Shown: piece after piece, positions 12,601-25,340 of the stretch
Layout: each line of letters opens with the position of its first letter
Numbering within the stretch: position 1 is the first letter of the stretch
From: Candidatus Pelagibacter sp. HTCC7211
GTDB taxonomy: Bacteria; Pseudomonadota; Alphaproteobacteria; Pelagibacterales; Pelagibacteraceae
Assembly: GCF_000155895.1 (NCBI RefSeq)
Contig: NZ_DS995298.1
Span: 900,001-932,000 of the forward strand
DNA length: 32,000 nucleotides
Direction of reading: 5' to 3'
The notes under the pieces: generated by a model
The model's input: the letters and a program-made list of their open reading frames with translations, nothing else
Database searches by the model: none
Told to the model about the DNA's origin: nothing
Made by a program: the position numbers and the translations under genes

Positions 12601-12617
12601 CAAATACTTTCTATCAG

Positions 12618-12647: not shown

Positions 12648-12648
12648 A

Positions 12649-12676: not shown

Positions 12677-12686
12677 TCCTGGCACA

Positions 12687-13145: not shown

Positions 13146-13146
13146 T

Positions 13147-13584
13147 ATGGAAAATACTCAAACAACATCAAAATCACCTAAATTAAAACTAGATTTTAAG
13201 GATAGTAAATACGCAACTGGAAGAAGAAAAACTTCAATAGCTAAAGTTTGGTTAAAAAAAGGTACTGGAAAAATATATGTGAATGGCAAACTTTTTAATG
13301 AATATTTTTCAAGTGAATTTCATCATCTTCAAATAACTAGGCCGTTTGATATTATTAACCAATCTACAGGATACGATGTAAGATGTAGTGTTAGCGGAGG
13401 CGGTCCTACTGGACAGGCAGGAGCCATGGTTCATGGAATTTCAAAAGCTCTAGTAATGTTTGATGAAAGTTTTAAAACTACATTAAAGACCGAAAAACTT
13501 ACTACAAGAGACTCTAGAGCTGTTGAGAGAAAGAAACCAGGCAGAAGAAAAGCTAGAAGAAGTTTCCAATTCTCTAAAAGATAA
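13147..13584 (+). CDS. rpsI: 30S ribosomal protein S9
   Basis: ATGRRKTSIA...GGG.TGQAGA..HGISKAL...TRDSRAVERKKPGRRKARRSFQFSKR. Confidence 0.95.
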   Translation: MENTQTTSKSPKLKLDFKDSKYATGRRKTSIAKVWLKKGTGKIYVNGKLFNEYFSSEFHHLQITRPFDIINQSTGYDVRCSVSGGGPTGQAGAMVHGISKALVMFDESFKTTLKTEKLTTRDSRAVERKKPGRRKARRSFQFSKR

Positions 13585-13618
13585 TTTTTTTTTAATTTTT
13601 TAACTGTTATAATAAATT

Positions 13619-14638
13619 ATGCCTAAGCTTAATGCATTAGTTGCTGGTTCAACTGGATATATTGGTGTTCAATTAATAAAATTATTAGTTAAACATAAAT
13701 ATATTAATATTAAATATTTATGTGGAAATACCTCTGTTGGTAAAAAAATTACTTATTATGATAAATCATTATCAAATAAAGAATTACCTAAAATTGTTAA
13801 ATTTAATAAAAACCTTTTAAAAGATATAGATGTAATTTTTACAGCTCTTCCAAATGGAGAAGCTCAAGATATTTCAAAATATTTAACGAAAAATATTACT
13901 TTAATTGATTTAGCTGCTGATTTTAGATTAGAAAAAACATCTGATTATCTTAAATGGTATAAGCAAAAACATAGAGCAAAAAATTTAATAAAAAAAAGTA
14001 TATATTCTCTTCCAGAAATTAACGGCAAAGAATTAAACAATTATCAAATTATTTCATGCCCAGGATGTTATCCAACCTCTATATTGTTACCCCTAATACC
14101 TCTTTTTGAAAGTAATTTAGTAAAAGTAAAAAATATAATTATGGATTCTAAATCAGGTTATTCAGGTGCTGGTAGAGGAGTTCATAAAAAATATAAAGAT
14201 AAAAATCTTTATGAATCTTTAAGTGCCTACGGTGTTGGGTTTCATCGTCATAATTCTGAAATAGATCAAATGTTAAAAAAATATACTAAAAAAGAAATTA
14301 ATTTTAGTTTTACACCTCATCTAACACCTATGTTTAGAGGAATCTTGAGTACCATTTATATAGATTTGGAAATTGGTGTTACACAGTCAGATGTTGTTAA
14401 AAAACTCTCAACATTTTATCAAAAAGATAATTTTGTTAGGATCTTAAAAAAAAATACTTTAATCAGCACTAACGATGTGATTAATACAAATAATTGCCAT
14501 ATATCAGTTTGTAAATCAAAATATAAAAATAAAATTGTAATACTTTCTGCTATTGATAACTTGATTAAAGGTGGCGCAGGTCAAGCTGTACAAAATTTAA
14601 ATATGAAATTTAATTTTCCCTTAAAAACTGCATTGTAA
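13619..14638 (+). CDS. argC: N-acetyl-gamma-glutamyl-phosphate reductase
   Basis: GSTGYIG NAD-binding N-terminus, active-site CPGCYPTS, and C-terminal DNLIKGGAGQAVQN. Confidence 0.9.
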   Translation: MPKLNALVAGSTGYIGVQLIKLLVKHKYINIKYLCGNTSVGKKITYYDKSLSNKELPKIVKFNKNLLKDIDVIFTALPNGEAQDISKYLTKNITLIDLAADFRLEKTSDYLKWYKQKHRAKNLIKKSIYSLPEINGKELNNYQIISCPGCYPTSILLPLIPLFESNLVKVKNIIMDSKSGYSGAGRGVHKKYKDKNLYESLSAYGVGFHRHNSEIDQMLKKYTKKEINFSFTPHLTPMFRGILSTIYIDLEIGVTQSDVVKKLSTFYQKDNFVRILKKNTLISTNDVINTNNCHISVCKSKYKNKIVILSAIDNLIKGGAGQAVQNLNMKFNFPLKTAL

Positions 14639-14865
14639 TGAAATTTACTTTTATTTTATCTTTATTCTTTATTTTAAGTAATTGTTCACTAAATACAGAT
14701 TCTAAATATTGGACAGAAGATGTAGAAAAAAGAAAAGAAAATCAAAAAAAATTATCTAAGATATTAAAAAAGACAGACGATATAACAACTATGACACTTG
14801 AGGAATATAAGATTTATATAGATGACCATACAAAAAAAAGTAAATATCCAGATATAAGCCAATGA
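14638..14865 (+). CDS. Small predicted lipoprotein, unknown function
   Basis: Signal peptide with lipobox ILSNC. Translationally coupled on both sides (TAATG with argC, ATGA with hom). No recognisable domain. Confidence 0.55.
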   Translation: MKFTFILSLFFILSNCSLNTDSKYWTEDVEKRKENQKKLSKILKKTDDITTMTLEEYKIYIDDHTKKSKYPDISQ

Positions 14866-16154
14866 AAAATATAATTAATATTGCTGTAATAGGTTTGGGT
14901 CAAGTTGGAATTTATCTTTTAAATGAATTAAATTTAAAAAAAAAAGATATTGAGATTAAAACTGGAAAAAAAATAAATATTGTAGCTGTTTCTGCAAAAA
15001 ATTTTAATAAAAAAAGACAATTTAATTTTGATAAAAAAAATTTTTTTAAAAATCCTTTAGAAATTTTTAAAAAGAAAAAAGTTGATATTTTATTTGAAGC
15101 AATTGGACAATCCGACGGTGTTTCAAAAAAAATTGTTGAAACAGCTTTGAAAAATAAAACACATGTAATTACACCCAATAAAGCTTTAATATCTAAACAT
15201 GGAAATAATTTAGCAAAACTTGCTGAAAAAAATAATGTTAACTTTGAATTTGAGGCATCAGTAGCAGGTGGAATACCTGTATTGAGATCTATCAAAGAAG
15301 GTTTAGCAACAAATAAAATTTCAAAAGTTTATGGAATTTTAAATGGTACCTCCAATTATATTCTTTCTGAGATGGAAAATTCAAATCTCAATTTTTCAGA
15401 TGTTCTTAAAAAAGCCCAAAAACTTGGTTATGCTGAACCTGGCAATCCTAAATTAGACTTAAATGGATTTGATGCTTTTGCAAAAGTTAGAATTCTATCA
15501 GCTTTAGCATTTCATAGTAAAATTTCTTCATACAAATGTCTAATGGAAGGAATAGAAAAAATTGAATTAAAAGATATTAAAATAGCTAACCAATTAGATT
15601 TAAGAATTAAATTACTCGGCATTTCTGAGTTAAAAAATAATCAACTTTTTGAAACAGTTCATCCATGTCTTGTGAGTAAAAAATCCTATATAGGAAATGT
15701 TAATGGTGTAATGAATGCCGTTATAATTGAAGGAAAACCAGTTGGTGAAAGTATTTTACAAGGGGAGGGCGCTGGACCTGGCCCTACATCTTCTGCTCTA
15801 TTGTCTGATCTATTATCTATATTACGAGGTAATATTAAAAGACCATTTGGTGTCAGTGCTTCAAAGCTGAAAACTCTAAAACCATATAATTCAAATAATT
15901 ATGTTAATTCTTTATATTTAAGATTTGAAGTTAAAGATAAACCAGGCGTATTATCTCAAATTACTAATCGTTTAGCTAAGTATAAAATTTCAATTAAAAG
16001 AATTATTCAAACTCCAGATAAAAAAAATAATAAAGCTACAATTGTAATAATTTCACACAAAACGACGGAGTTAAATTGCAATAATTGCTTATCTATTTTC
16101 AAAAATAATAAGAATATACTTAAAAATCCAACATTGATTAGATTACTTGATTAA
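14862..16154 (+). CDS. hom: Homoserine dehydrogenase
   Basis: NAD-binding N-terminus (IGLGQVG), catalytic domain (ILNGTSNYILSEM, LGYAEPGNPKLDLNG.DA..K) and a C-terminal ACT domain (DKPGVLSQITNRLAKYKISI). Confidence 0.9.
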   Translation: MKNIINIAVIGLGQVGIYLLNELNLKKKDIEIKTGKKINIVAVSAKNFNKKRQFNFDKKNFFKNPLEIFKKKKVDILFEAIGQSDGVSKKIVETALKNKTHVITPNKALISKHGNNLAKLAEKNNVNFEFEASVAGGIPVLRSIKEGLATNKISKVYGILNGTSNYILSEMENSNLNFSDVLKKAQKLGYAEPGNPKLDLNGFDAFAKVRILSALAFHSKISSYKCLMEGIEKIELKDIKIANQLDLRIKLLGISELKNNQLFETVHPCLVSKKSYIGNVNGVMNAVIIEGKPVGESILQGEGAGPGPTSSALLSDLLSILRGNIKRPFGVSASKLKTLKPYNSNNYVNSLYLRFEVKDKPGVLSQITNRLAKYKISIKRIIQTPDKKNNKATIVIISHKTTELNCNNCLSIFKNNKNILKNPTLIRLLD

Positions 16155-16156
16155 TA

Positions 16157-17059
16157 ATGGATTTATACATTAAACTTTTTGAAGTTTTATTTCCTGTTTT
16201 TTTTGTTGTTGGGATTGGTTACTATCTTGGAAAAAAAAATCCAAAAATAGATACAACATTCATAACAAATTTTGCTGCTAATGTAGGTACACCAGCAATG
16301 ATTATTTATGCATTAACAGCCACTGGAACATCATTTGAAATTTTCAAAAATTATTTTTGGTATTACTTGATAGCAATTATAATTTTTTCTTTAATTGGTG
16401 TAATCTTTTTATTTTTACTTAATACTAAAGATATCATTCGTGAATTGCCTCCATTTATAATGCCAAACACTGGTAATATGGGTTTACCTATATGCTTATT
16501 TGCTTATGGATCACAAGGTTTAGGTGTTGCAGCTGCAATTTCAGCCTTGATAATATTGAGTCATTTCACATTAGGTATATTTCTTGCAGCTAGAAAATTT
16601 AATTTTGATGTAATTCTTAAAAGTCCTCCATTTTATACAATTATAATTTCTGTTCTTTTACTTTATTTCGAAATTGAGACTCCAGTCTTTATTGAAAACA
16701 CAACTTTTTTATTAATGTATGCAACTATATTTTTAATTTTAATGTCTCTAGGAATTGCACTTACTCGATTTAAAGTTTTTTCTTTTAAAAAAGCTTTAGT
16801 CTCGTCAATAGGTAGAGTTATTCTTGGTCCTATAGTAGGTTTCTTATTAATAAGATATTTTAATTTATCAGGATTTGCAGCTGGTGTTCTACTAATTCAA
16901 TGCTCAATGCCATCAGCAGTATTAAATTACCTTGTTGCATCAATTTACTCACCAAAAAAAATTATTGATAGTGTTGCTAGTACAATTGTAGTTTCAACAC
17001 TAATGTCATTTATTACAATACCTATTGTTGTATTCTTTGCTTTAAAATACTTCAATTAA
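16157..17059 (+). CDS. AEC (auxin efflux carrier) family permease
   Basis: 300-aa, roughly 10-TM protein with an AEC-type N-terminus (FPVFFVVGIGYYLGK) and NTGNMGLP motif. Confidence 0.75.
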   Translation: MDLYIKLFEVLFPVFFVVGIGYYLGKKNPKIDTTFITNFAANVGTPAMIIYALTATGTSFEIFKNYFWYYLIAIIIFSLIGVIFLFLLNTKDIIRELPPFIMPNTGNMGLPICLFAYGSQGLGVAAAISALIILSHFTLGIFLAARKFNFDVILKSPPFYTIIISVLLLYFEIETPVFIENTTFLLMYATIFLILMSLGIALTRFKVFSFKKALVSSIGRVILGPIVGFLLIRYFNLSGFAAGVLLIQCSMPSAVLNYLVASIYSPKKIIDSVASTIVVSTLMSFITIPIVVFFALKYFN

Positions 17060-17076
17060 AATGTATCTATTGGCTT

Positions 17077-17931
17077 ATGAAAGCCATTATTTTTAGTTTA
17101 CTTGGATGGATGTTTTTACCTGTCATGGATGGTTTTGCTAAATTTTTGAGTGATGATCTTCCAATATTACAAATAACTTGGGCAAGATATTTTTTTACGG
17201 TTTTTTTTACACTTCCAATAATGATATTTTTTTTTAAAAAACAACTAGTGTGGTCCGACAAACCTAAATTACAAATATTAAGAGGTATAATATTGCTATC
17301 AGCTAATATTTGTTTTTTTTATGCAATATCTATAATTTCTTTGGCGAAAGCATTAACTTTAGCTTTTGTAGCACCTTTAATTGTAACTACATTTTCACCT
17401 GTTATGCTAGGAGAGAAAGTGGGTTTTAGAAGATGGACAGCAGTGGTAGTTGGTTTTACTGGTTCTTTAGTAGTGATTAGACCTGGTTTTGTTGAGTTAA
17501 ATTTTGCTAGTTTAGCAGCATTAGGAACTGGCATTCTTTATGGATTTTATTTAATAATAACTCGAAAATTAAGTACTTCAGATAATCCACTTTTAACGCT
17601 TTTAATGACTGGAATGGTAGGGGCCATACTTGTTTCAGCAATTATTCCCTTTTATTGGGTAAAACCATCACTAAATCAATGGTCTTTAATGGCTGGTATA
17701 GGCGTTTTCGCGTGCATAGGGCATTTATTTTTGATATTATCCCTCAAATATGCTGATGCCTCTAAATTAGCTCCTTTAGGCTATACAGAGATAATACCAA
17801 ATGTATTAATAGGCTATTATTTTTTTAGTGAGTTCCCTGATAAATGGACATATGTAGGTTTATTAATCATCATTTTAAGTGGTTTATATATATTTAGACG
17901 AGAATATATACTTACTAGGTCTAAATATTAG
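17077..17931 (+). CDS. EamA/DMT family transporter
   Basis: 284-aa 10-TM protein with duplicated EamA-like halves (RWTAVVVGFTGSLVVIRPG linker). Confidence 0.8.
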   Translation: MKAIIFSLLGWMFLPVMDGFAKFLSDDLPILQITWARYFFTVFFTLPIMIFFFKKQLVWSDKPKLQILRGIILLSANICFFYAISIISLAKALTLAFVAPLIVTTFSPVMLGEKVGFRRWTAVVVGFTGSLVVIRPGFVELNFASLAALGTGILYGFYLIITRKLSTSDNPLLTLLMTGMVGAILVSAIIPFYWVKPSLNQWSLMAGIGVFACIGHLFLILSLKYADASKLAPLGYTEIIPNVLIGYYFFSEFPDKWTYVGLLIIILSGLYIFRREYILTRSKY

Positions 17932-17954
17932 TAATTAAATATTTACTATTATCT

Positions 17955-17998
17955 AATCTATTACATTAATATTATATTATAAACTATTGTAATTATTA
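17955..17998 (+). repeat. Copy 1 of a 44-bp imperfect direct repeat
   Basis: aatctattacattaatattatattataaactattgtaattatta matches 19161-19204 at 35 of 44 positions in an ungapped hand alignment. Confidence 0.5.
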
Positions 17999-18472
17999 TA
18001 ATATCTTAATAAAAAATTTAATAATAATTTAGGATAAGTTTAATAAAATACTTAATATTTTTAAAAAATAATAAGATAATTTGGATACTAATCAGAGAAA
18101 AAAGGCAAATAAGACAAGTATAAAAATACAGAATTAACAGTAAGCTTTTAAAATGTTTAATAGCAATGGTTTTTTAAGGTTTGAATTTTCATTATTTGAA
18201 TAAATATAAAAATAGGTGAGTAGGGTTGAAGAAATTCATTTAAAATTGATAAGATTTTGCACATTAAATTAACCTTGGTATCATTGCAAACTAGAGCAAT
18301 GCAGTTATAGAATATATGTTTTAATCGGCCATAGAGGTGCTTTATTTTGCTATATCTCGATATATAGTACAACTAAAGGGTGCATAGCACTATTTATGCT
18401 AAAATATACTTAAAAATTGAAAAATTGTTGATTATGCTAGTTTTTTGACGATAAAATAGGCTTAAAATACCT

Positions 18473-18748
18473 CTAAATATTAACTTTTTCAGATCTCAAT
18501 AATCGCAGCTTTGTCTTAATTCCCCCTCTACCTGAGTATCCACCAAGACCTCCATCGGACCGAATTACTCTATGGCAAGGTATTTTCGGGGCATATGGGT
18601 TTTTTCCGATAGCATTAGCTACTGCTCTATGAGCTTTTGGCTTTCCAATAGCTTTTGCCACTTGCAGGTAAGTTCTAATTTCTCCTTTTGGTATTTTTTT
18701 TAGGTAATTCCAAACTTTTATCTGAAATTTAGTCCCTTTTAAGTTCAT
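18473..18748 (-). CDS. Methylated-DNA-protein-cysteine methyltransferase, C-terminal-domain-only (mini-MGMT)
   Basis: FQIKVWNYLKKIPKGEIRTYLQVA...HRAVANAIGKNP..PKIPCHRVIRSDGGLGGY contains the PCHRV active-site cysteine. Start ATG 18748 (MNLKGTKFQ) is preferred over the track's 18805, which would overlap GNAT by 77 nt. Confidence 0.8.
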   Translation of the reverse strand: MNLKGTKFQIKVWNYLKKIPKGEIRTYLQVAKAIGKPKAHRAVANAIGKNPYAPKIPCHRVIRSDGGLGGYSGRGGIKTKLRLLRSEKVNI

Positions 18749-19166
18749 ATAATTCAAATCCTGTATTGTTAGCAATCTTATCATATAATGTTTTTGCTGT
18801 CTCATTGGAAGAGTGGGTTATCCAACGAATTCCTTCCCAATTATTTTTTTTAGACAAAGACTCCAGGTATTTTATAAGCTTTTGAGCTATTTTTTGTCCT
18901 CTAAAATTTTCATCTACGAATAAATCATCTAAAAAACCAATATATTTACCTTTAATTGGTCTTGGCATTGTTCTGTAGTGAGCTATTCCAACGATTTTAT
19001 CTTCTATTTCGTAGCATATTCCATTAACAACATGAATTTCATCGTGTATCCAGCTCCATAAAGTATCTAAAATCTCTTGTTTCATAGGAACTTTATAAAA
19101 TCTAGCATACCCACAATATAATTTTATCCAATTTTCCTTAACTTTTCTTTTAATTTTTCTAATCAT
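18729..19166 (-). CDS. GNAT family N-acetyltransferase
   Basis: Acetyl-CoA motif A (LFVDENFRGQKIAQKLIKYL) and typical GNAT length. Confidence 0.8.
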   Translation of the reverse strand: MIRKIKRKVKENWIKLYCGYARFYKVPMKQEILDTLWSWIHDEIHVVNGICYEIEDKIVGIAHYRTMPRPIKGKYIGFLDDLFVDENFRGQKIAQKLIKYLESLSKKNNWEGIRWITHSSNETAKTLYDKIANNTGFELYELKRD

Positions 19167-19204
19167 TTACATTAATAGTATTAAATAAAACATTGTAATT
19201 GTTA
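19161..19204 (+). repeat. Copy 2 of the 44-bp imperfect direct repeat; fills the DUF2938-GNAT spacer
   Basis: aatcatttacattaatagtattaaataaaacattgtaattgtta. It contains the 13-bp palindrome ttaataGtattaa (19172-19184). Confidence 0.5.
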
Positions 19205-19209
19205 ATTTA

Positions 19210-19686
19210 TTAAATAGTAAACCATCTAAAACCTTCATACATCGCTACACCATATATCGAATGCCTAATAAGAAAAATAATAGAAGTTTCAATTGGTTTA
19301 TCAGTATTTTTTGCAAAAATACCTTGCCCTGTAAAAGGTAAAAATACTAAAAGTGGAGCTAAAGTTGTTATTGCTCCAAAAATAAGCCCTGAAAAATAAG
19401 ACATTTTAATTCCAACATTAATGAAGATAATATAGTAAATAACTGCCCAAGATATTGATATAAAGTAATGAAAAACCCATCCAAGCAATACTTCATATTT
19501 AAATTCAGGTTTTTCAATAATTGTTGGGTTAAAAAAAGCACCATTTTTTATCATATAAAAGGTCCATCTACCTACAATGCCCCAAGAGGGTTCTGGAATA
19601 CCTATTTTTTTTAATAAATAACCCAAAATATCTAAAATGATGCAAGAAAATATGCCTGCAACGAAAATACTCAAAAAATCAATCAA
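19210..19686 (-). CDS. DUF2938-family integral membrane protein
   Basis: Four to five TM segments. GRW..Y...G.F and HY.IS..WA.IY motifs are recalled from DUF2938. The start codon is TTG at 19686, with no in-frame ATG nearby. Confidence 0.65.
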   Translation of the reverse strand: MIDFLSIFVAGIFSCIILDILGYLLKKIGIPEPSWGIVGRWTFYMIKNGAFFNPTIIEKPEFKYEVLLGWVFHYFISISWAVIYYIIFINVGIKMSYFSGLIFGAITTLAPLLVFLPFTGQGIFAKNTDKPIETSIIFLIRHSIYGVAMYEGFRWFTI

Positions 19687-19693
19687 TATTAAC

Positions 19694-19864
19694 TCAATAA
19701 AAATTTAAAATAATAAAGCAAACTATAAAGAAAACAGCTAAAATAGACAAATAAATCGTTTCTAGAGTTTTTCCAGTTTTTTTATACTGAATAAAGCTTA
19801 ATATTACAAAACCAATTGAAGTTATTAAAAAATATATTGGTTCAATTACACCGTCAATGCCCAT
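19694..19864 (-). CDS. Possible small two-TM membrane protein (56 aa), not in ORF track
   Basis: Manual translation gives MGIDGVIEPIYFLITSIGFVILSFIQYKKTGKTLETIYLSILAVFFIVCFIILNFY*. There are two hydrophobic helices with a KKTGK loop. The stop lies 7 nt before the DUF2938 TTG start. Confidence 0.35.
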   Translation of the reverse strand: MGIDGVIEPIYFLITSIGFVILSFIQYKKTGKTLETIYLSILAVFFIVCFIILNFY

Positions 19865-19900
19865 TTTTTAATCTTATTTCATCCATGTTTTGTTCTCAAT

Positions 19901-19917
19901 ATCATTAATTGTCATCA
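19901..19917 (+). repeat. Partial direct copy of the recombinase palindrome core
   Basis: atcattaattgtcatca versus ataattaattgttatca (19972-19988) matches at 15 of 17 positions. A third at(g)attaatt lies at 19921-19930. Confidence 0.45.
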
Positions 19918-19937
19918 TAAATGATTAATTATTTTAT

Positions 19938-19966
19938 TTGACATTAGAAAACTCCTGATATATTAC
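19938..19966 (+). promoter_or_regulatory. Candidate promoter of the recombinase gene
   Basis: Perfect -35 TTGACA (19938-19943), N17, TATTAC (19961-19966). The -10 element is the first 6 nt of the palindrome. Confidence 0.35.
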
Positions 19967-19997
19967 TAATGATAATTAATTGTTATCAATAGTAATA
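19961..19997. repeat. 15-7-15 inverted repeat (lox/FRT-like architecture) directly upstream of the recombinase ATG
   Basis: tattactaatgataa / ttaattg / ttatcaatagtaata. The arms are reverse complements at 14 of 15 positions. The repeat ends 2 nt before ATG 20000. Confidence 0.6.
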
Positions 19998-19999
19998 AT

Positions 20000-20953
20000 A
20001 TGAACGAACTAACAACAGACTTAAAATTACTTCATGAGGCAACTTTAAATAACCTTAAAAGCTCAAAAGCAAATAACACTTTGAGAGCTTACAAATCAGA
20101 TTTTAAAGATTTTGGAGCTTTTTGCTCAAAACACGGTTTAAATTCGTTACCATCAGAACCTAAAATAGTAGCTTTATACCTCACACATCTTTCTAAAAAT
20201 TCAAAAATAAGCACTCTAAGAAGAAGGTTGGTATCAATAAGCATGGTTCATAAGTTAAAAGGATTTTATTTAGATACAAAACACCCTATCATTGTTGAGA
20301 ATTTAATGGGAATAAAAAGGGTTAAAGGAAGCATTCAAAAAGGAAAAAAACCTCTATTAATTAATCATTTAAAATCAATTATTAATGTAATAGATGAACA
20401 AAAAATAGAAGATATAAAGAAAGCAAGAGATAAGACAATCATCTTAATAGGCTTTGGAGGTGGTTTTAGACGAACTGAACTTATTTCAATTGACCATGAT
20501 GATTTAGAATTTGTTCCTGAAGGTCTTAAAATAACTATCAGAAGATCAAAAACTGATCAATTCGGTGAGGGGATGATTAAAGGACTACCCTACTTCACTA
20601 ATGAAAAATATTGTCCAGTAGTTAATCTAAAAAAATGGTTAGAAATTTCTAAGATTAGCTCAGGACCAATTTTTAGAAGGTTTAGCAAAGGTTCATCTTT
20701 AACAGATAAAAGATTAACAGACCAATCTGTAGTATTATTGATGAAAGAATATCTAAATTTATCAGGCATAGAAAATAAAAATTTTGCTGGTCATAGCTTG
20801 CGATCAGGTTTTGCAACTGTTGCAGCAGAGTCAGGAGCAGATGAAAGAAGTATAATGGCTATGACAGGTCATAAAACAACACAAATGGTTAGAAGATATA
20901 TAAGAGAAGCCAATATCTTTAAAAATAATGCATTAAATAAAATTAAAATTTAA
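20000..20953 (+). CDS. Tyrosine site-specific recombinase/integrase, Cre-like architecture
   Basis: Catalytic signature GGFRRTEL (Arg I), GHSLRSGFAT (His-x-x-Arg) and GHKTTQMVRRYIR (His, Tyr nucleophile). The N-terminal domain TLRAYKSDFKDFGAFCSKHGLNSLPSEPKIVALYLTHLS parallels Cre (TWKMLLSVCRSWAAWC...FPAEPEDVRDYLLYLQ), recalled from memory. Confidence 0.9.
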   Translation: MNELTTDLKLLHEATLNNLKSSKANNTLRAYKSDFKDFGAFCSKHGLNSLPSEPKIVALYLTHLSKNSKISTLRRRLVSISMVHKLKGFYLDTKHPIIVENLMGIKRVKGSIQKGKKPLLINHLKSIINVIDEQKIEDIKKARDKTIILIGFGGGFRRTELISIDHDDLEFVPEGLKITIRRSKTDQFGEGMIKGLPYFTNEKYCPVVNLKKWLEISKISSGPIFRRFSKGSSLTDKRLTDQSVVLLMKEYLNLSGIENKNFAGHSLRSGFATVAAESGADERSIMAMTGHKTTQMVRRYIREANIFKNNALNKIKI

Positions 20954-20957
20954 AATA

Positions 20958-21860
20958 TTATATGTTCCAAATTTTATAAACTACTTTGTATAACATCGTA
21001 ATGTATAAAATAATTGAAATTAATCTCAAAAAATTCTTGTATGACTTCTTTGGCCTGAAGATTATAAAATTAATTATAATACGTTGAAAATAATCTATAA
21101 AATTTTTGATTATACGAAAAATTAAAGAACTAACATTATTATTTTTTTTAAAATAAATATAAGAAGATATTTTATGTATAATTGATAATTTGGAGTTTGT
21201 AAAAAATTTTTTTTTTGAAGAAGCATTTTCTAAATGAATAAATTTTGATGAAGGAACTTCCATAATGTATTTTCCTTTTTTTAAAGTACGATCGCATAAA
21301 TCATTATCTTCGAAGTACATAAAAAAGTTTTTATCAAAACCTCCTAATGAATTAAAAAAATCTCTATGCATAAGATAGCAACAACCCATTAAAAATTTAC
21401 AACAAGTATTATAAGATGGAATATTATTAGATATATTTGAAACTTTAACACCATTTAATTGATCTAAATATGAAATTGTCCCGTTAGTACGTCTGTGCAT
21501 TTTTTGATCATATAATGATGGCCCCAAAATTCCTATATTTTCAGGATCATTTAAAAAATTTTTAAATAGATCATTAATAGAATCTTCATTTATTAAAATA
21601 TCAGGATTTACAATTAAAATAAAAGGTGTTGTAGCTCTAGAAATAGCTAAATTGTTTGCAGCTCCATATCCTAAATTTATAGAGGATCTTATAAAATCTA
21701 TATTTTTATAATTAAAAATAATTTTTTCTAATTCTTTAGAATTAGAATTATCAACTATTATTGTAGGAAATTTTTTTAATATTTCTATATTTTTTTGAAT
21801 AAGCTTTTCACTTCTGTATGTTACAATTATTAATGTAATATCTTCATAAATACTTGTCAT
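20958..21860 (-). CDS. Family 2 glycosyltransferase with C-terminal hydrophobic tail
   Basis: ITLIIVTYRSEK...VDNSN...GYGAANN...LIVNPD (GT-A DxD-type core) and FFMYFEDNDLC. The C-terminus has a TM-like segment. Confidence 0.85.
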   Translation of the reverse strand: MTSIYEDITLIIVTYRSEKLIQKNIEILKKFPTIIVDNSNSKELEKIIFNYKNIDFIRSSINLGYGAANNLAISRATTPFILIVNPDILINEDSINDLFKNFLNDPENIGILGPSLYDQKMHRRTNGTISYLDQLNGVKVSNISNNIPSYNTCCKFLMGCCYLMHRDFFNSLGGFDKNFFMYFEDNDLCDRTLKKGKYIMEVPSSKFIHLENASSKKKFFTNSKLSIIHKISSYIYFKKNNNVSSLIFRIIKNFIDYFQRIIINFIIFRPKKSYKNFLRLISIILYITMLYKVVYKIWNI

Positions 21861-21868
21861 AATTTAAA

Positions 21869-22843
21869 TTATAATTGTTTTAAAAGATTAGAAGCTACTG
21901 TTTTCCATTTTTTAGAACCTCTTAAATTTAGTAAATTATTTCGTATTTCATTCCATAAATTATAGTTATTAAAAATATTTAATGTAAAATCAGCAAATTC
22001 ATCACTATTTTTTGCTATAAATCCAGTAATACCATGCTCAACACGCTCTGAAAGTGATCCAATACCCAATGTTATGATTGGTATACATAGTTCTCTTGCT
22101 TCTTCAGCTGCTATGCAAAATAATTCGCCTTTATGACCAGGCACCAATAACACTTTAGATTTAAGCATATCTTTAAGCAATGAAATCTTATTATCAAAAT
22201 TTCTAGAGTATATATTAAAATTATTTTCGATTAAATCACTTGGTGTAACAAAAAGTTTTATAGATTTGTTTTTTGGAAATATCTTTTTTTTCCAAATATC
22301 AATTAATATATCTAAATTTCTATCTCTCCTCGAGGTAAATATAGCTCTATTTTCTACATTAGAATCATCAATTTCTGCTTCTAAAAATAATGGGTCAACC
22401 GCCCATTGGAGATTAATTTTTCCAAATAATTTTAAAAGGAAATTTCTATTATCATCATGATATTTTCCCAAAATAATAACTTTAGGTTTATACTTTAAGA
22501 AACTTAATAATTGACCTTTACGAATAAATTTTTCAATAGATTGAATACTGTGTGAAAAAGCAATATAATTTTTTGCTGAGATTTTATTAAAAAGCCTAAT
22601 ATCATTATTTGTGAATGCATAATCAAAAACATTTTCTTTATTAGTATTATTAATATTAGTCCACTTTACATTATCAAAAGTTTGACTTTCTGAATTATTA
22701 TTAAAAACTTCAACATTATTATTAAGTTTTGCAAGTTCTTTTGATAAATGGATTATTACATTTTCACCACCTCTAATATCTTTTGAATTCAAATCATTTG
22801 GTGTGTATGGAATAGGTGAATTATCCAAGAAACAAATTTTCAT
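21869..22843 (-). CDS. GT-B fold glycosyltransferase (GT1/GT4-like)
   Basis: C-terminal Glycos_transf_1-like motif (LLVPGHKGELFCIAAEEARELCIPIITLGIGSLSERVEHGITGF). Confidence 0.75.
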   Translation of the reverse strand: MKICFLDNSPIPYTPNDLNSKDIRGGENVIIHLSKELAKLNNNVEVFNNNSESQTFDNVKWTNINNTNKENVFDYAFTNNDIRLFNKISAKNYIAFSHSIQSIEKFIRKGQLLSFLKYKPKVIILGKYHDDNRNFLLKLFGKINLQWAVDPLFLEAEIDDSNVENRAIFTSRRDRNLDILIDIWKKKIFPKNKSIKLFVTPSDLIENNFNIYSRNFDNKISLLKDMLKSKVLLVPGHKGELFCIAAEEARELCIPIITLGIGSLSERVEHGITGFIAKNSDEFADFTLNIFNNYNLWNEIRNNLLNLRGSKKWKTVASNLLKQL

Positions 22844-24969
22844 TAAAACAAATTAGGTTTTTTTCCGAAAGATATATCGATTATATATTTTGAAATTTTA
22901 TTTCCATTAAAAAGTTTAAAATATTTTGCTTTACCATTTTTTGCTATTTTTTTTCTTAACTTATCATTTTTACTATAAAAATTAATTTTAGAAGCTAGAT
23001 CATCAATATTATTGTAAAATATTACCTCCCTCTCATCATCAAAAAAAACATCCAGTTGTGTTTTTTTATCTATAAATGTAAGTAGTCCATTACCTAGTAA
23101 TGATGCTATTCTATTACTTGAATAATATTTAGTTGGTGTTCCCCTGCTTAAATTTAATCCCATTTTTGAATTAATTAAAGCTCTATTAAAACTATTACCC
23201 CAAATAGGCTGTCTGTTTTTAAATCCATGAAAATCATAATTTATATCTGGAATTTTTTTTATAAGTTTATCCAAAAAATTAATTCTATTATCCTCAAACC
23301 CTTTTTTTAAAATACCTCTATTAACTCCATGACTCATAGCGTAAAATATATCTTTTTTTGGGTTTAACTTATAAACATCAAAACACTCAATATTTTTATC
23401 TACTGGCACAAAGAAAAAATTAAATTTCTGATTTTTAAATTTATTTTTTAAAATTGATGGGTGTGTAGTTATAAAATTATGATCAACTACAGAAACATAT
23501 GGCTTAATATTTTTAATATTTTTGGTAGAGAATTCAAGTCCAGGCATAAGAGGATCCTCATTCCATTGAGATATTATCAAACTTTTATTAATTGATCTCA
23601 TGTAATCAAATGTTTCTAAATTTATATTATTTGTGTGTCCAAATAAAAATAAATCAGGATTATAATTTTTAACTACCTCTATCAAATGTTTTTGAAATGA
23701 ATCTAAGTTAGTTCTAAAATTTAATAGACTACGATTATTCTTTATATAATCACGATCACTAATTTCTAAAACATCATGATTATTTCTAATGAAGCCATTT
23801 GTAAATTTTTTTCCTAGCGAGATATTAAATAATCTATAATTATTTTTTTGACCTTGATTAAATAAATTTATTATTCTTAATCTGTTCTTAATAAAATTTA
23901 ATTGAAATTTTGAAAAAATGTTACTCCTTATTAAATCAATTTTTTTTGTATTTTTATCAATTAAATGAATAACATTGTTCCTAGATAAATTTTGAATTTT
24001 TTTTCTTTTAATTTTATTATTTATTAGATCTTTAATATTCATATAAAGTTTTTCAGAATTAATATTATCAATAGGAACTATGTAATTTGATGTTTCTAAC
24101 AACCCACCTCTATTTGATGTAACAGTTGCGCATCCTGATGCAGTAGCTTCTAATGAAACACGACCAAATGGTTCTTCCCATCTTGAAGGGACAATAGCAA
24201 TTTCAGATTTATCTAATATATCTAATGTTTTTTGGTGATTTAAAAAACCATATTCTTTATGTTTTTTATGTTTGATATAAATACTCCTTCTACTTTCATC
24301 ACCTAAAGATAATGCACGCCAATCTGGATATTCATTAAGAATTCTAATAATTGCATCTTTGTATATATCATATCCTTTAGAATGATTTAGTTTTCCTACA
24401 AAAACAATCTGATTTGTTTTAATTTTTTTTTTTCGTTTATTTGTGCTGTGATAAATTATCTCTGTTTTATCTTCTTGGGTGCTATCTAAACCTTTAAAAA
24501 ATCTTTTTTTGACCCATTTGCTTATGAAAACTAATTTCTCAACTTTTTTTAAAATTTCAACTCTTTCTGAAATTGATTTTGATCCAGACATAGTTAATGG
24601 ATCGTTATGATAATACATAATAAATTTAGCATTTATTCTTTTTAAAAGTTGAAATAATATCAATGGTCTATTATGTATTTCAACTATATCAAATTTTTCT
24701 TTAATAATATTTTTGGATATTTTTTCTACATATTCGTATGATGTACTTCTAAATTTTGATTTAAGATTTTTAAGGGGTATATTTATATAATTCTTAGATA
24801 AATAATTTTTAGAGTTTGAATTTCCATAAATAAAATTTTTATTTTTAAATTTTGACTTATTAAAAAATTGTGAAACCCAAAGAGATACAGCTGAAGCATT
24901 CTCTAAAGTGTAGCTTTCTTTATATGGTAAAATAGTTGCTATTTTAATATCGTTTTTTTTTACTATCAT
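22843..24969 (-). CDS. Two-domain glycosyltransferase: N-terminal GT4 domain plus C-terminal CgeB/Glyco_trans_1_2-like domain
   Basis: Residues around 180-300 read FVGKLNHSKGYD...IVPSRWEEPFGRVSLEATASGCATV (E-x7-E). Residues around 540-700 read FYAMSHG..R...L.......GF......W......ALINSKMGLNLSR....YYSSNRIASLLGNGLLTF, resembling CgeB-type domains. Confidence 0.8.
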   Translation of the reverse strand: MIVKKNDIKIATILPYKESYTLENASAVSLWVSQFFNKSKFKNKNFIYGNSNSKNYLSKNYINIPLKNLKSKFRSTSYEYVEKISKNIIKEKFDIVEIHNRPLILFQLLKRINAKFIMYYHNDPLTMSGSKSISERVEILKKVEKLVFISKWVKKRFFKGLDSTQEDKTEIIYHSTNKRKKKIKTNQIVFVGKLNHSKGYDIYKDAIIRILNEYPDWRALSLGDESRRSIYIKHKKHKEYGFLNHQKTLDILDKSEIAIVPSRWEEPFGRVSLEATASGCATVTSNRGGLLETSNYIVPIDNINSEKLYMNIKDLINNKIKRKKIQNLSRNNVIHLIDKNTKKIDLIRSNIFSKFQLNFIKNRLRIINLFNQGQKNNYRLFNISLGKKFTNGFIRNNHDVLEISDRDYIKNNRSLLNFRTNLDSFQKHLIEVVKNYNPDLFLFGHTNNINLETFDYMRSINKSLIISQWNEDPLMPGLEFSTKNIKNIKPYVSVVDHNFITTHPSILKNKFKNQKFNFFFVPVDKNIECFDVYKLNPKKDIFYAMSHGVNRGILKKGFEDNRINFLDKLIKKIPDINYDFHGFKNRQPIWGNSFNRALINSKMGLNLSRGTPTKYYSSNRIASLLGNGLLTFIDKKTQLDVFFDDEREVIFYNNIDDLASKINFYSKNDKLRKKIAKNGKAKYFKLFNGNKISKYIIDISFGKKPNLF

Positions 24970-25207
24970 TCAATATTCTTAATCTCTCATTTCTATCTTT
25001 TTTTAATTTGTATTCAAACGAAAGAGCTTTATTCTTGGAATAAAATCTTTTTTTATAAATAATTTCCCATTTATAGCCTCTAGTCGATTTAGCACCTAAA
25101 TTGGAATTATGCTTATGAAGCCTTTTTTTAATATTATTTGTATACCCAACATATGATTTATCTAAAAAACCATCTAAGGTTTTTATTAAATATACATAGT
25201 AAACCAT
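24944..25207 (-). CDS. GIY-YIG nuclease superfamily protein (UPF0213/YhbQ-like)
   Basis: YYVYLIK...SYVGYTNNIKKRLHKHN...GAKSTRGYKWEIIY...ALSFEYKLKK. It overlaps the downstream GT start by 26 nt. Confidence 0.8.
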   Translation of the reverse strand: MVYYVYLIKTLDGFLDKSYVGYTNNIKKRLHKHNSNLGAKSTRGYKWEIIYKKRFYSKNKALSFEYKLKKDRNERLRILNDSKKKRY

Positions 25208-25224
25208 AATTAATTATGCTTATT

Positions 25225-25299
25225 TGGCGGTCCCTGGGGGAATCGAACCCCCCTTTGCAGGATGAAAACCAGCTGTCCTAACCGATAGACGAAGGGACC
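25225..25299 (-). tRNA. tRNA-Glu (anticodon UUC), CCA encoded
   Basis: The hand-folded cloverleaf has acceptor GGUCCCU/AGGGACC, D stem GUCU/GGAC, anticodon arm GCUGG-UUUUCAU-CCUGC and T arm GGGGG-UUCGAUU-CCCCC. It is closely similar to E. coli tRNA-Glu. Confidence 0.93.
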
Positions 25300-25309
25300 A
25301 TGAGGTGAT

Positions 25310-25338
25310 CTTTTATTTTAAAAGTTTATATTTATCAA
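25310..25338 (-). promoter_or_regulatory. Candidate promoter for tRNA-Glu (and possibly the downstream GIY-YIG/GT operon)
   Basis: Minus strand reads TTGATA (25338..25333), N17, TAAAAG (25315..25310). The -10 element ends 10 nt before the tRNA 5' end. Confidence 0.3.
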
Positions 25339-25340
25339 GT

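What the first reader, a model, noticed from the sequence alone, without database searches (positions are those of the whole stretch)
19961..19997. lox/FRT-like 15-7-15 palindrome overlapping the -10 element and ending 2 nt before the recombinase start codon
The sequence tattactaatgataa-ttaattg-ttatcaatagtaata has 15-nt arms that are reverse complements at 14 of 15 positions around a 7-nt asymmetric spacer. This is the same architecture as simple tyrosine-recombinase core sites (loxP and FRT are 13-8-13, dif is 11-6-11). It begins exactly at a candidate -10 (TATTAC) placed 17 nt after a perfect TTGACA. Recombinase binding there would both define a crossover site and autorepress the gene. A 15 of 17 direct partial copy of spacer plus inner arm lies 71 bp upstream (19901-19917), with a third at(g)attaatt at 19921-19930. 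Those copies could be accessory binding sites. The adjacent protein resembles Cre in both domains.
Basis: partly seen in the sequence, partly recalled or inferred. Interest (0 to 1): 0.7.

Follow-up and report, generated by a model that had tools for sequence, protein, structure and literature searches.

The report
SAR11 recombinase with its lox/dif-like site
A 35-37 bp palindrome just upstream of a conserved Cre-like recombinase gene in the ocean bacterium SAR11 is very probably that enzyme's own recombination site, may be the chromosome-untangling (dif/Xer-type) system SAR11 was reported to lack, and has look-alike sites in abundant SAR11 phages that encode no such enzyme.

Summary
The palindrome is real and at the stated coordinates: 19961-19997, 14 of 15 arm positions pair, 7-nt spacer, ATG at 20000. 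Sequence statistics alone do not prove it, because 19% of window shuffles give an equal palindrome. Conservation does. It is the most conserved 37-nt stretch of the locus in 79 Pelagibacter genomes, and it persists next to recombinases only 72-80% identical to this one. Relatives of the recombinase on plasmids, in viral contigs and in another marine alphaproteobacterium carry the same architecture, xxxxGATAA-N6-8-TTATCxxxx, just upstream of their genes. Their arms are related and their spacers free. Cre matches the family profile, and all catalytic residues are present. The main interpretation, a lox-type core site of the adjacent recombinase, is therefore supported. The proposed accessory copies are not, and autorepression is untested. 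The gene is the apparent ortholog of HTCC1062 SAR11_1019 ('xerD'). The locus is single-copy, and genes converge on it in 49 of 50 genomes. Several independent inversions span it. It lies roughly 45% of the chromosome from dnaA, and SAR11 is reported to lack XerCD/dif. My best reading is a single-recombinase chromosome-dimer-resolution module. HTVC010P-type pelagiphages carry one cognate-looking site; the two complete genomes checked encode no recombinase of this family.

The parts
19961..19975 (.). Left (promoter-side) arm, TATTACTAATGATAA. Positions 19969-19970 are the only tolerant ones.
   Evidence: Conservation comes: positions 1-8 and 11-15 are invariant or nearly so in 73-79 genomes. Positions 9-10 vary (A/T/G and T/C), and the same two positions vary in the phage sites.
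19976..19982 (+). Asymmetric 7-nt spacer TTAATTG, the presumed crossover region.
   Evidence: It is 99-100% conserved in 79 genomes. It is also present next to recombinases 72-80% identical to this one, although that scan required the spacer, so this shows persistence rather than independent conservation. Spacers differ in homologous modules elsewhere, for example CATACAA in L413 and many others.
19983..19997 (.). Right (gene-side) arm, TTATCAATAGTAATA. The last base is not conserved.
19938..19943 (+). -35-like TTGACA hexamer at a fixed distance (17-18 nt) from the palindrome.
   Evidence: TTGAC is invariant and the final A 89% conserved in 79 genomes, whereas the 17 nt between the hexamer and the palindrome are variable (0.765). 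The same arrangement occurs in L413.
19956..19966 (+). -10 region, assignment ambiguous. The candidates are TATTAC (19961-19966, 17-nt spacing) and the extended -10 TGaTATATT (19956-19964, 15-nt spacing). Either one overlaps the outer left arm.
   Evidence: Read from the sequence. The consensus scan does not call TATTAC. Transcription has not been mapped.
20000..20953 (+). 317-aa simple tyrosine recombinase (Cre-type in the broad sense), the apparent ortholog of HTCC1062 SAR11_1019 'xerD integrase/recombinase'.
   Evidence: Pfam Phage_integrase at 1.1e-18 plus Phage_int_SAM_1. Scores are far below the XerC, XerD and XerA cut-offs. PDB hits are XerA, XerD, Cre and XerH. Catalytic R157, K184, H265, R268, H291 and Y300 are present. 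All 8000 scored database candidates matched at E<=1e-10, the 120 listed being 87-93% identical, and 504 relatives were confirmed among GTDB species genomes. The synteny with metY and the SAM-V riboswitch matches SAR11_1030/SAR11_1019.
18749..19937 (-). Context: a variable slot holding 0-3 small minus-strand genes (here GNAT, DUF2938 and a 56-aa ORF) between the MGMT-like gene and the recombinase promoter. It includes the non-conserved pseudo-copies at 19901-19917 and 19921-19930.

Best explanation
The palindrome is the cognate lox/dif-type core recombination site of the recombinase encoded immediately downstream. One recombinase monomer would bind each 14-nt arm (ATTACTA-NN-GATAA), and strand exchange would occur across the 7-bp asymmetric spacer TTAATTG. 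Gene and site form one module, as in P1 cre-loxP, xerS-difSL and xerH-difH. In SAR11 the module is chromosomal, single-copy, vertically conserved and placed where the two gene-orientation domains converge. I therefore think its main job is to resolve chromosome dimers by recombining the two sister copies of the site, which would replace the XerCD/dif system that Pelagibacter is reported to lack. Because the site sits between a conserved -35 hexamer and the start codon, and covers the -10/start region, bound recombinase should also repress its own promoter. What is shown: the element, its extreme conservation, its association with this recombinase family across distant taxa, catalytic competence by sequence, and convergent gene orientation. 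What is inferred: binding, crossover in the spacer, dimer resolution and autorepression. My sub-probabilities are about 0.8 for cognate recombinase site, about 0.5 for dimer resolution as the main role, and about 0.5 for autorepression.
For: (1) Constraint. The 37-mer is the most conserved stretch of the locus in 79 genomes. It persists next to recombinases 72-80% identical to this one. (2) Site and recombinase go together across very distant taxa. MarineAlpha5 (L413, 43% identity) has the same -35 / palindrome / ATG layout with a different spacer. About ten viral contigs of 39-71% GC have CCGATAA-N7-TTATCGG 4-70 nt upstream of the start codon of a family recombinase, with HMM E-values of 1e-55 to 1e-123. 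Four of eight plasmid homologs checked have xxxxGATAA-N6-8-TTATCxxxx upstream, in Skermanella, Iodobacter, Protochlamydia and Runella. The proven SCre site SloxM1 is CTCGTGTCCGATA-ACTGTAAT-TATCGGACACGAG (PMC3082901). (3) The enzyme looks active and Cre-like. Homologs are found on 1960 PLSDB plasmids, where such modules typically resolve multimers; that role is established knowledge for Cre/lox. (4) No second copy. None occurs in the window or within 6 kb on either side in 80 genomes, allowing up to 9 mismatches. In 241 million metagenome records the exact spacer plus right arm, outside the canonical promoter context, was again next to the recombinase in 37 of 38 hits. (5) Terminus-like setting. 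Whole-strand GC skew changes sign near 18-20 kb. In 49 of 50 genomes the left flank is plus-strand genes with positive skew and the right flank is minus-strand genes with negative skew. At least four independent inversions all span the locus and preserve that pattern. SAR11_1019 lies about 45% of the chromosome from dnaA by gene-number arithmetic. (6) The literature states that P. ubique has no dif/Xer system (PMC2731167). (7) The whole palindrome is flipped in place relative to gene and promoter in six contigs. That is tolerable for a dif-like or operator site, whose orientation relative to the gene is irrelevant.
Against: There is no experimental evidence of binding or recombination. The terminus assignment is not proven. 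GC skew in the window follows gene orientation. The test at 4-fold degenerate sites was inconclusive, and the minus-strand gene run to the right ends at 29.3 kb. The 45% position is a rough inference from gene numbers and a preprint. The absence of XerCD from SAR11 rests on one 2009 paper and was not re-tested here. The recombinase is not an ortholog of XerC, XerD, XerS or XerH. The invariant spacer within Pelagibacter is not required for sister-site recombination and hints at an extra constraint, such as the promoter/5' UTR or a partner site. FtsK dependence is unknown. Four of eight plasmid homologs and two other contexts (L415, L417) showed no clear palindrome upstream.
Confidence: 0.6

Rival explanations
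1. The site is mainly an integration or capture platform, an attB or IMEX-style target. The host recombinase would insert circular DNA that carries a matching site (phages, cassettes) next to its own gene, which would explain the variable genes on both sides.
For: The exact 17-bp core GATAA-TTAATTG-TTATC occurs in 31 viral contigs, mostly as ttCCGATAA-TTAATTG-TTATCGGaa in HTVC010P-type pelagiphages. Phage spacers of that element cluster around TTAAnnG. Gene content varies immediately upstream (0-3 small genes) and downstream (glycosyltransferases) of the recombinase. Legionella LME-1 integrating at dif is a precedent (PMC9765430).
Against: No attL- or attR-type hybrid was found. None of the 38 metagenome hits joins a phage-type left arm to the host right arm, and none of the 31 viral contigs is a hybrid. 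No close homolog of the recombinase lies in viral or prophage contigs. Homology between genomes does not break inside the palindrome but upstream of the -35. No site-like repeats flank the variable genes. Most phage sites have spacers that differ from the host's.
Confidence: 0.15
2. The site is only an operator. A dimeric DNA-binding protein, either the recombinase acting purely as a repressor or another SAR11 regulator, binds the palindrome to control transcription, and no recombination takes place there.
For: The site lies between a conserved -35 and the ATG. In-place flipping is tolerated. SAR11_1019 mRNA rises about 8-fold in stationary phase together with recA, so the gene is regulated (PMC5069961). 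Phage copies lie in the regulatory region between the early and late modules or between terS and terL.
Against: A regulator unrelated to the recombinase would not explain why the palindrome follows this recombinase family into plasmids and genomes of 26-71% GC. Spacing of 6, 7 or 8 nt between identical half-sites is typical of tyrosine-recombinase cores (dif 6, cer 8) and unusual for rigid dimeric repressors. All catalytic residues are retained under purifying selection. There is only one such site per 32 kb window, and none elsewhere in the metagenome scan.
Confidence: 0.1
3. The element's main biology is phage-related. Either the host recombinase acts on phage-borne sites (defence by cutting or rearranging, or exploitation by phage for genome cyclisation or multimer resolution), or the chromosomal site mimics a phage packaging or regulatory site.
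For: At least 45 pelagiphage-like contigs have full host-type arms even though the search did not require the outer right arm. The complete genomes of HTVC100P and Greip EXVC021P have one such site each and no recombinase of this family. The sites sit near terL/terS, as loxP sits near pac in P1; the P1 point is from my own knowledge.
Against: This does not explain conservation of the chromosomal module in every Pelagibacter lineage at one syntenic, terminus-like place. It also does not explain the same module in plasmids and other bacteria. Use by phages is more simply seen as secondary exploitation of a housekeeping enzyme, as with Xer-exploiting elements.
Confidence: 0.1
4. The palindrome is a structural nucleic-acid hairpin (5' UTR, translational control or terminator), or a chance palindrome in AT-rich DNA.
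For: The single strand folds at -7.8 kcal/mol, z = -4.75 against shuffles. Equal palindromes arise in 19% of window shuffles. The ATG follows 2 nt after the stem.
Against: Sequence, not just pairing, is conserved, loop included. Variation is not compensatory: positions 19969/70 change without changes at 19988/89. With the conserved -35, transcription should start inside or after the left arm, so the hairpin would not be transcribed whole. No Rfam family hits the region. Both neighbouring genes read away from the intergenic region, so it cannot terminate them.
Confidence: 0.03

Closest known systems
Cre/loxP of phage P1 and other Cre-type recombinase/lox-like pairs (SCre/SloxP, VCre/VloxP, Vika/vox, and the YR series of PMC10250229)
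   Same: A simple two-domain tyrosine recombinase of about 320-370 aa with the R-K-H-R-(H/W)-Y catalytic set. The target is two 13-15 bp inverted arms around a 6-8 bp asymmetric spacer. The site lies next to the gene. Arms are family-specific and the spacer is free. The inner arm of SloxM1 (..GTCCGATA|A) is of the same type as the CCGATAA arms next to relatives of this protein. Cre scores 2.9e-42 against the family HMM.
   Different: Pairwise identity to Cre is only about 22%. The W315 position is His, as in the Xer and lambda-Int proteins. The geometry read here is 14-7-14, or 15-7-15. The module is on a chromosome, universally conserved in a free-living lineage, and its site directly overlaps the gene's promoter and ends 2 nt before the ATG. 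Activity has not been demonstrated.
Single-recombinase chromosome dimer resolution modules: XerS/difSL (streptococci and lactococci), XerH/difH (Helicobacter, Campylobacter), archaeal XerA/dif, and XerL/dif (Legionellales)
   Same: One tyrosine recombinase instead of XerC plus XerD. The site is AT-rich, palindromic, intergenic and unique. For XerS and XerH the site lies next to the xer gene (PMC1914069, PMC2731167). The flanking genes vary. The host lineage was previously reported to lack dif/Xer, as Legionella was (PMC9765430). Mobile elements carry mimics of the site (LME-1 there, pelagiphage sites here). The best PDB sequence match is XerA.
   Different: The protein is not an ortholog of any named Xer family: NCBIfam scores are 41-69 bits against cut-offs of 220-335. 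The arms are longer and almost perfectly symmetric. Terminus location is only suggested here. No phenotype is known and no FtsK link is known.
Integron integrase IntI with attI overlapping a regulated intI promoter
   Same: The recombinase gene is transcribed divergently from a small array of variable genes that all point away from it. The recombination site lies in the promoter region of the recombinase gene.
   Different: The integron-integrase profile matches only weakly and partially (30.7 bits against a cut-off of 265). No attC-like repeats bound the variable genes. Homology breaks do not fall inside the palindrome.
Xer-exploiting mobile elements (IMEX: CTXphi, LME-1) and plasmid multimer-resolution sites cer and psi
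   Same: Mobile genomes that encode no recombinase but carry a copy or mimic of the host's recombination site. Central regions of 6-8 bp are tolerated.
   Different: No integrated form of the pelagiphage sites has been seen. Most of them differ from the host site in the spacer. This favours phage-phage recombination (multimer resolution or cyclisation) over integration, if they are used at all.

Membership tests
Cre-type simple tyrosine recombinase with lox-type site | Two-domain tyrosine recombinase with a complete catalytic set (R, K, H, R, H/W, Y) and no arm-binding N-terminal domain | tested here: met
   Pfam SAM_1 plus Phage_integrase cover residues 18-303 of 317 aa. R157, K184, H265, R268, H291 and Y300 align to Cre R173, K201, H289, R292, W315 and Y324. 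Cre scores 2.9e-42 against the family HMM, and the PDB Cre chains align over both domains.
Cre-type simple tyrosine recombinase with lox-type site | Target made of two 11-15 bp inverted arms around a 6-8 bp asymmetric spacer | tested here: met
   15-7-15 with 14 of 15 positions pairing, and a conserved 14-7-14 core.
Cre-type simple tyrosine recombinase with lox-type site | Site located within about 1 kb of the recombinase gene, in non-coding DNA | tested here: met
   The site ends 2 nt before the ATG. The placement is the same in 77 genomes, in L413, in about ten viral contigs and in four plasmids.
Cre-type simple tyrosine recombinase with lox-type site | Across relatives the arms are conserved or co-vary with the recombinase, while the spacer is free | tested here: met
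   Spacers differ in L413, the plasmids and the viral contigs, while the GATAA/TTATC inner arms persist. Phage sites have conserved arms and spacers of 6, 7 or 8 nt that vary in sequence. Within Pelagibacter itself the spacer is invariant.
Cre-type simple tyrosine recombinase with lox-type site | The recombinase alone recombines two copies of the site | not testable with these tools
   This needs an excision or inversion reporter assay or an in vitro reaction.
dif/Xer chromosome dimer resolution system | Recombinase orthologous to XerC, XerD, XerS, XerH or XerA | tested here: not met
   NCBIfam scores against curated cut-offs: XerD 68.8 bits (cut-off 329.6), XerA 67.9 (220), XerC 59.3 (335), XerS 41.1 (267). 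It could therefore only 'work like' a Xer, as XerL does.
dif/Xer chromosome dimer resolution system | Site unique in the chromosome, intergenic, AT-rich and palindromic | tested here: inconclusive
   It is unique in the 32 kb window and within 6 kb on either side in 80 genomes. The metagenome scan found the exact half-site plus spacer only next to the recombinase, in 37 of 38 hits. Whole chromosomes could not be scanned.
dif/Xer chromosome dimer resolution system | Site at the replication terminus (cumulative GC-skew maximum) | tested here: inconclusive
   The local cumulative skew peaks at about 18-19 kb. Flanking genes converge and skew changes sign in 49 of 50 genomes. Inversions span the site. 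However, skew follows gene orientation and the 4-fold-site test was inconclusive. Position is about 45% from dnaA, by gene-number arithmetic only.
dif/Xer chromosome dimer resolution system | Universally present in a lineage that has no other Xer/dif | tested here: inconclusive
   Presence: 504 confirmed relatives among GTDB species genomes, and 8000 database proteins at E<=1e-10, the 120 listed being 87-93% identical. The absence of XerCD/dif from P. ubique is taken from PMC2731167 and was not re-tested.
dif/Xer chromosome dimer resolution system | Loss causes dimer-resolution defects; activation by FtsK | not testable with these tools
   Requires genetics or heterologous complementation.
Integron (IntI/attI/attC) | IntI-type integrase, with cassettes bounded by attC sites | tested here: not met
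   TIGR02249 scores 30.7 bits against a cut-off of 265, over residues 242-295 only. No repeats related to the site lie around the variable genes.
Lambda-type phage integrase with attB/attP (prophage or island boundary) | Arm-binding domain, a direct-repeat att pair flanking an element, and hybrid junctions | tested here: not met
   The protein has no extra N-terminal domain. There is no second copy within 6 kb on either side. No hybrids appear in the metagenome or viral scans. No close homolog lies in viral contigs.
Invertible-promoter switch (Fim-type tyrosine invertase) | Two inverted copies of the site flanking a short invertible segment | tested here: not met
   Only one copy exists. The in-place flip seen in six contigs concerns the palindrome itself and leaves the promoter sequence practically unchanged.

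The most novel reading that the evidence does not exclude
SAR11, reported to have lost dif/Xer, in fact resolves chromosome dimers with a domesticated Cre/lox-type (plasmid-type) gene-plus-site module at its terminus. The very abundant, supposedly strictly lytic HTVC010P-type pelagiphages, which encode no recombinase of this family, each carry a cognate site near their packaging genes. They would use it to borrow the host enzyme, either to cyclise or monomerise their genomes as P1 does with its own Cre, or, for the subset sharing the 17-bp core with the host, to integrate at the host site.
Probability: 0.3. Interest if true: 0.8.

Novelty: new member of a known kind. Interest (0 to 1): 0.66.

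Why it matters
SAR11 is the most abundant bacterial lineage in the ocean and a model for genome streamlining. The only statement I found on the subject says it has no dif/Xer system, which leaves open how a recombination-prone organism with a circular chromosome resolves dimers. A conserved recombinase with its site attached gives a concrete, cheaply testable candidate: a 37-bp site and a 317-aa enzyme in a standard excision reporter. It would add a further independent lineage of single-recombinase dimer-resolution systems, after XerS, XerH, XerA and XerL, this time drawn from the Cre/plasmid-resolvase pool. The look-alike sites in HTVC010P-type pelagiphages suggest a host-phage dependency that nobody has described. 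They could change how the 'lytic' label of the most abundant known phages is read. The pair is also a ready-made candidate for an AT-rich orthogonal lox-type tool.

Tried and rejected
(1) Second copy or invertible or excisable element. A fuzzy search for the 37-mer (up to 9 mismatches) in the window and 80 loci found none. Half-site counts in the window match chance. (2) Accessory sites at 19901-19917 and 19921-19930. They are absent from most genomes, and the stretch looks like the relic of the 5' end of a gene present in L069 and L078. Rejected. (3) Prophage integration. The metagenome scan was designed to exclude the canonical promoter context (H at the -35 G). It gave 38 hits and no hybrid junctions, so integration is unsupported. 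(4) Replication skew independent of gene orientation. 4-fold-site GC skew in the window and pooled over the loci was inconclusive, because too few genes are oriented head-on to replication. (5) Getting the site's coordinate in a complete genome. Two look-ups by protein never displayed the >1 Mb contig. (6) Structure. The AlphaFold2 model built from the shallow alignment (sequences 87-93% identical) had a mean pLDDT of 41.8. I judged it unusable and ran no fold search. (7) Fur box, CtrA box, DnaA box, IHF site or LexA box: compared from memory only. TGATAA/TTATCA half-sites resemble a Fur box, but the spacing (7 against 3) does not fit. I did not pursue this once the palindrome was found to travel with the recombinase family. 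(8) Which ANA-3 plasmid gene is SCre. The 372-aa protein (31.5% identical to Cre) is the likelier one. A 336-aa paralog 3.5 kb from SloxP is closer to the SAR11 protein (31% identity, E = 4e-49). The assignment is not certain, so the SloxP parallel is used only as a parallel. (9) Polarity of the site relative to the chromosome arms. All four combinations of segment orientation and palindrome orientation occur, so there is no rule. (10) Two further distant homolog contexts (L415, next to BREX genes, and L417) and four of eight plasmids showed no clear upstream palindrome. The association is therefore frequent but not universal.
Full report
WHAT IS THERE. The window is Pelagibacter (SAR11) DNA. 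It is 26.9% GC, carries a SAM-V riboswitch at 12482-12548 in front of metY, and every close relative of its genes is Pelagibacter. At 19961-19997 the sequence reads TATTACTAATGATAA-TTAATTG-TTATCAATAGTAATA. Fourteen of the 15 arm positions are complementary and pairing does not extend outward. TTGACA lies at 19938-19943. The ATG of a 317-aa ORF follows at 20000. The upstream neighbours all lie on the minus strand and read away from the site: a 56-aa ORF, DUF2938, a GNAT and an MGMT-like DNA-binding protein. The downstream neighbours are minus-strand glycosyltransferases.

IS IT MORE THAN CHANCE? By composition alone, no. In 400 dinucleotide shuffles of the window, 19% contain at least one palindrome of equal quality. 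Only 0.18% of shuffles of the 135-nt intergenic region do, but that is a post hoc test. By conservation, yes. I fetched 80 loci from different GTDB species whose recombinases are 90-95% identical to this one. In an alignment of 79 sequences the 37-mer has a mean majority-base frequency of 0.978. That compares with 0.785 at third codon positions and 0.765 in the 17 nt between the -35 and the palindrome. It is the best 37-nt window in the whole 1024-nt alignment. TTGACA stays at a fixed distance, with TTGAC invariant and the final A 89% conserved. Sequence further upstream differs between groups of genomes. Inside the palindrome only left-arm positions 9-10 vary freely. The outermost pair is not conserved, so the constrained element is 14-7-14. 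A metagenome scan built to skip the canonical promoter context recovered the same site in front of recombinases only 72-80% identical to this one.

DOES THE SITE BELONG TO THE RECOMBINASE? The protein has the N-terminal SAM-like domain and the catalytic domain of simple tyrosine recombinases. It scores far below the curated cut-offs for XerC, XerD, XerA, XerS and integron integrases. Its best matches among solved structures are XerA, XerD, Cre (both domains) and XerH. The exhaustive profile search shows a large family: 2684 clusters at E<=1e-30, with the nearest relatives outside this clade 40-47% identical. tblastn finds homologs on 1960 PLSDB plasmids.

An HMM built from 131 of these relatives hits P1 Cre at 2.9e-42, and Cre's catalytic R, K, H, R, W and Y align to R157, K184, H265, R268, H291 and Y300. 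The decisive point is that the palindrome travels with the family.
- In a MarineAlpha5 alphaproteobacterium (43% identity) the upstream region reads TTGACT-N17-TATTACTTCCGATAA-CATACAA-TTATCGGAAGTAATA, directly followed by ATG.
- In about ten unrelated viral contigs of 39-71% GC, ttCCGATAA-N7-TTATCGGaa lies 4-70 nt upstream of the start codon of a family member.
- In four of eight plasmids checked, from Alpha- and Betaproteobacteria, Chlamydiota and Bacteroidota, perfect xxxxxGATAA-N6-8-TTATCxxxxx palindromes lie upstream of the gene.

Arms are related and spacers are free. This is the pattern of lox-type sites. The experimentally proven SCre site SloxM1 (CTCGTGTCCGATA-ACTGTAAT-TATCGGACACGAG; PMC3082901) has the same inner arm. 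I therefore put the probability that the palindrome is the recombinase's own core site at about 0.8. A regulator unrelated to the recombinase cannot explain this co-occurrence. Spacings of 6, 7 or 8 nt fit recombinase cores better than rigid dimeric repressors.

WHAT IS IT FOR? No second copy exists in the window or within 6 kb on either side in any of 80 genomes. That rules out a local invertible or excisable element. No hybrid junctions with foreign DNA were found, and no close homolog sits in viral contigs. That argues against a prophage boundary.

Several observations point to a dif-like role.
(i) Carnoy and Roten (PMC2731167) state that P. ubique has no dif/Xer system.
(ii) The gene is the apparent ortholog of HTCC1062 SAR11_1019, annotated 'xerD integrase/recombinase'. 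It lies 11 genes from metY (SAR11_1030), which matches the window's gene order.
(iii) Gene-number arithmetic places it about 45% of the chromosome from dnaA. This uses HVR2 = SAR11_0523-0568 (PMC2217521) and HVR2 at 7-15% from dnaA (preprint 10.64898/2026.04.03.716430). It is a rough inference.
(iv) Whole-strand GC skew changes sign at 18-20 kb. In 49 of 50 genomes the left flank carries plus-strand genes with positive skew and the right flank carries minus-strand genes with negative skew.
(v) At least four independent inversions, with breakpoints 1-11 kb on either side, all span the locus and keep that convergent pattern. This is what is expected around a terminus.
(vi) Single-recombinase systems (XerS/difSL, XerH/difH) also keep the site next to the gene.
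(vii) The plasmid relatives suggest a multimer-resolution ancestry.

Caveats follow. In this window skew follows gene orientation, and my 4-fold-site test could not separate replication effects from coding effects. I could not scan whole chromosomes. I put dimer resolution at about 0.5.

Because the site lies between the conserved -35 and the ATG, bound recombinase should repress its own promoter. This is an inference. The -10 assignment is ambiguous: TATTAC lacks the T at position 6 and the scan does not call it, and an extended -10, TGaTATATT, lies 15 nt after the -35. Published data show the HTCC1062 mRNA rising about 8-fold in stationary phase together with recA (PMC5069961).

ORIENTATION. 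In six metagenome contigs (recombinases 82-86% identical to this one) the whole palindrome is flipped in place between an otherwise homologous promoter and gene. Both orientations of the surrounding segment occur with both palindrome orientations. Orientation relative to the gene and to the flanks is therefore not constrained. That is compatible with a dif-like site or an operator. The flip probably arose by a hairpin-mediated template switch; this is inference.

PHAGE LOOK-ALIKES. The exact 17-bp core occurs in 31 IMG/VR contigs. A search that fixed only the left arm plus TTATC returned 45 contigs of 27-38% GC (one outlier at 57%) in which the unconstrained right arm also matches the host arm. 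Their spacers are 6, 7 or 8 nt long and differ in sequence. A second palindrome, ttCCGATAA-TTAAnnG-TTATCGGaa, often lies beside the first. The contigs are HTVC010P-type pelagiphages. The sites lie between terS and terL, or in the non-coding region between the early and late modules. The complete genomes of HTVC100P and Greip EXVC021P have one host-type site each and no detectable recombinase of this family. Du et al. (PMC8477408) class the members of this phage group that lack an integrase as strictly lytic. The simplest reading is that these phages exploit the host enzyme, as Xer-exploiting elements and cer/psi plasmids do. This is a hypothesis. Integration is unsupported by the present scans.

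REJECTED DETAILS. The partial copies at 19901-19917 and 19921-19930 are not conserved and sit in what looks like a gene relic. An RNA or DNA hairpin role is unlikely, because sequence rather than pairing is conserved and the changes are not compensatory. The AlphaFold2 model was too poor to use, with a mean pLDDT of 41.8.

VERDICT. Its secondary claims are either not supported or untested. The most likely function is a single-recombinase, dif/Xer-like chromosome-dimer-resolution module with autoregulation, secondarily exploited by pelagiphages. I found no description of the site, of this role, or of the phage sites in the searchable literature. It is a new member of a known kind, with above-average interest because of the organism and the phage link.

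Noticed in passing
L081-L111 and L228-L341 (IMG/VR); MT375525.1 22461-22499 (Greip EXVC021P); MW273924.1 about 34319-34375 (HTVC100P); MW273920.1 35155-35220 (HTVC024P): HTVC010P-type pelagiphages carry one palindrome with the host-type arms (ATTACTA-NN-GATAA / TTATC-NN-TAGTAAT) and a free 6-8 nt spacer. A second palindrome, ttCCGATAA-TTAAnnG-TTATCGGaa, often lies next to it. Both sit near terS/terL or in the early-late intergenic region. The two complete genomes checked encode no recombinase of this family.
   Followed up: partly
L343, L351, L373, L378, L379, L380 (metagenome contigs): The whole 35-bp palindrome is inverted in place between an otherwise homologous promoter and recombinase gene, so the spacer reads CAATTAA in the gene's direction. 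The variable arm positions move with the spacer. This probably reflects a single hairpin-mediated flip in one SAR11 lineage.
   Followed up: partly
window 5716-25350, compared with L001/L007/L010/L035/L041, L016/L020/L023/L031/L044/L057, L026, L072 and L379: At least four independent inversions, with breakpoints near 9.2, 16.1 and 17.1 kb on the left and near 21-22.8 and 25.35 kb on the right, all span the recombinase and its site. Each one preserves the pattern of plus-strand genes on the left and minus-strand genes on the right.
   Followed up: partly
window 18749-19937 and 20954-22842: There are two small variable slots. Upstream of the recombinase promoter, 0-3 small minus-strand genes come and go between genomes (GNAT, DUF2938, a 56-aa ORF, or a membrane-protein-like ORF of about 170 aa (function not tested) in L069 and L078). 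Downstream, the glycosyltransferase genes differ between genomes. This probably corresponds to the 'GI-35 with the only integrase' mentioned in PMC11796062.
   Followed up: partly
L413 5966-5999 (MarineAlpha5 metagenome contig, 26% GC): A recombinase 43% identical to this one has a perfect 15-7-15 palindrome, TATTACTTCCGATAA-CATACAA-TTATCGGAAGTAATA. TTGACT lies 17 nt upstream and the ATG directly follows. Its flanking genes also converge on it. The module therefore exists in a second streamlined marine alphaproteobacterial lineage.
   Followed up: partly
L217, L131, L197, L196, L174, L178, L187, L204, L216, L192 (viral contigs, 39-71% GC); L386, L388, L389, L392 (plasmids): Recombinases of the same family in unrelated, often GC-rich replicons have xxCCGATAA-N6-8-TTATCGGxx palindromes just upstream of their genes. 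These may amount to a large, uncatalogued set of natural lox-like pairs.
   Followed up: partly
L394 15707-16714 and 24487-25602 (Shewanella sp. ANA-3 plasmid, NC_008573.1): Two tyrosine recombinases flank the published SloxP site at 3.5 and 4.2 kb. The 372-aa one is the closer Cre homolog and is probably SCre. The 336-aa one is closer to the SAR11 protein. Which of them acts on which site in vivo is unclear.
   Followed up: partly
literature on HTCC1062 SAR11_1019 (PMC5069961, Table 1): mRNA of the apparent ortholog rises 8.5-fold in sulfur-limited stationary phase and 7.6-fold in control stationary phase, alongside recA. The protein was not detected. This could reflect relief of autorepression or a stress or SOS-like input.
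   Followed up: no
window 12482-12548 (minus strand): A SAM-V riboswitch (83.9 bits) lies in front of the metY homolog (11151-12479). It was useful as a synteny anchor to SAR11_1030.
   Followed up: no
window 24945-25299: A small GIY-YIG-domain ORF (87 aa, called in L395) lies between the conserved 708-aa glycosyltransferase-like gene and tRNA-Glu (25225-25299). This is the right-hand edge of the variable region and a recurrent inversion breakpoint.
   Followed up: no
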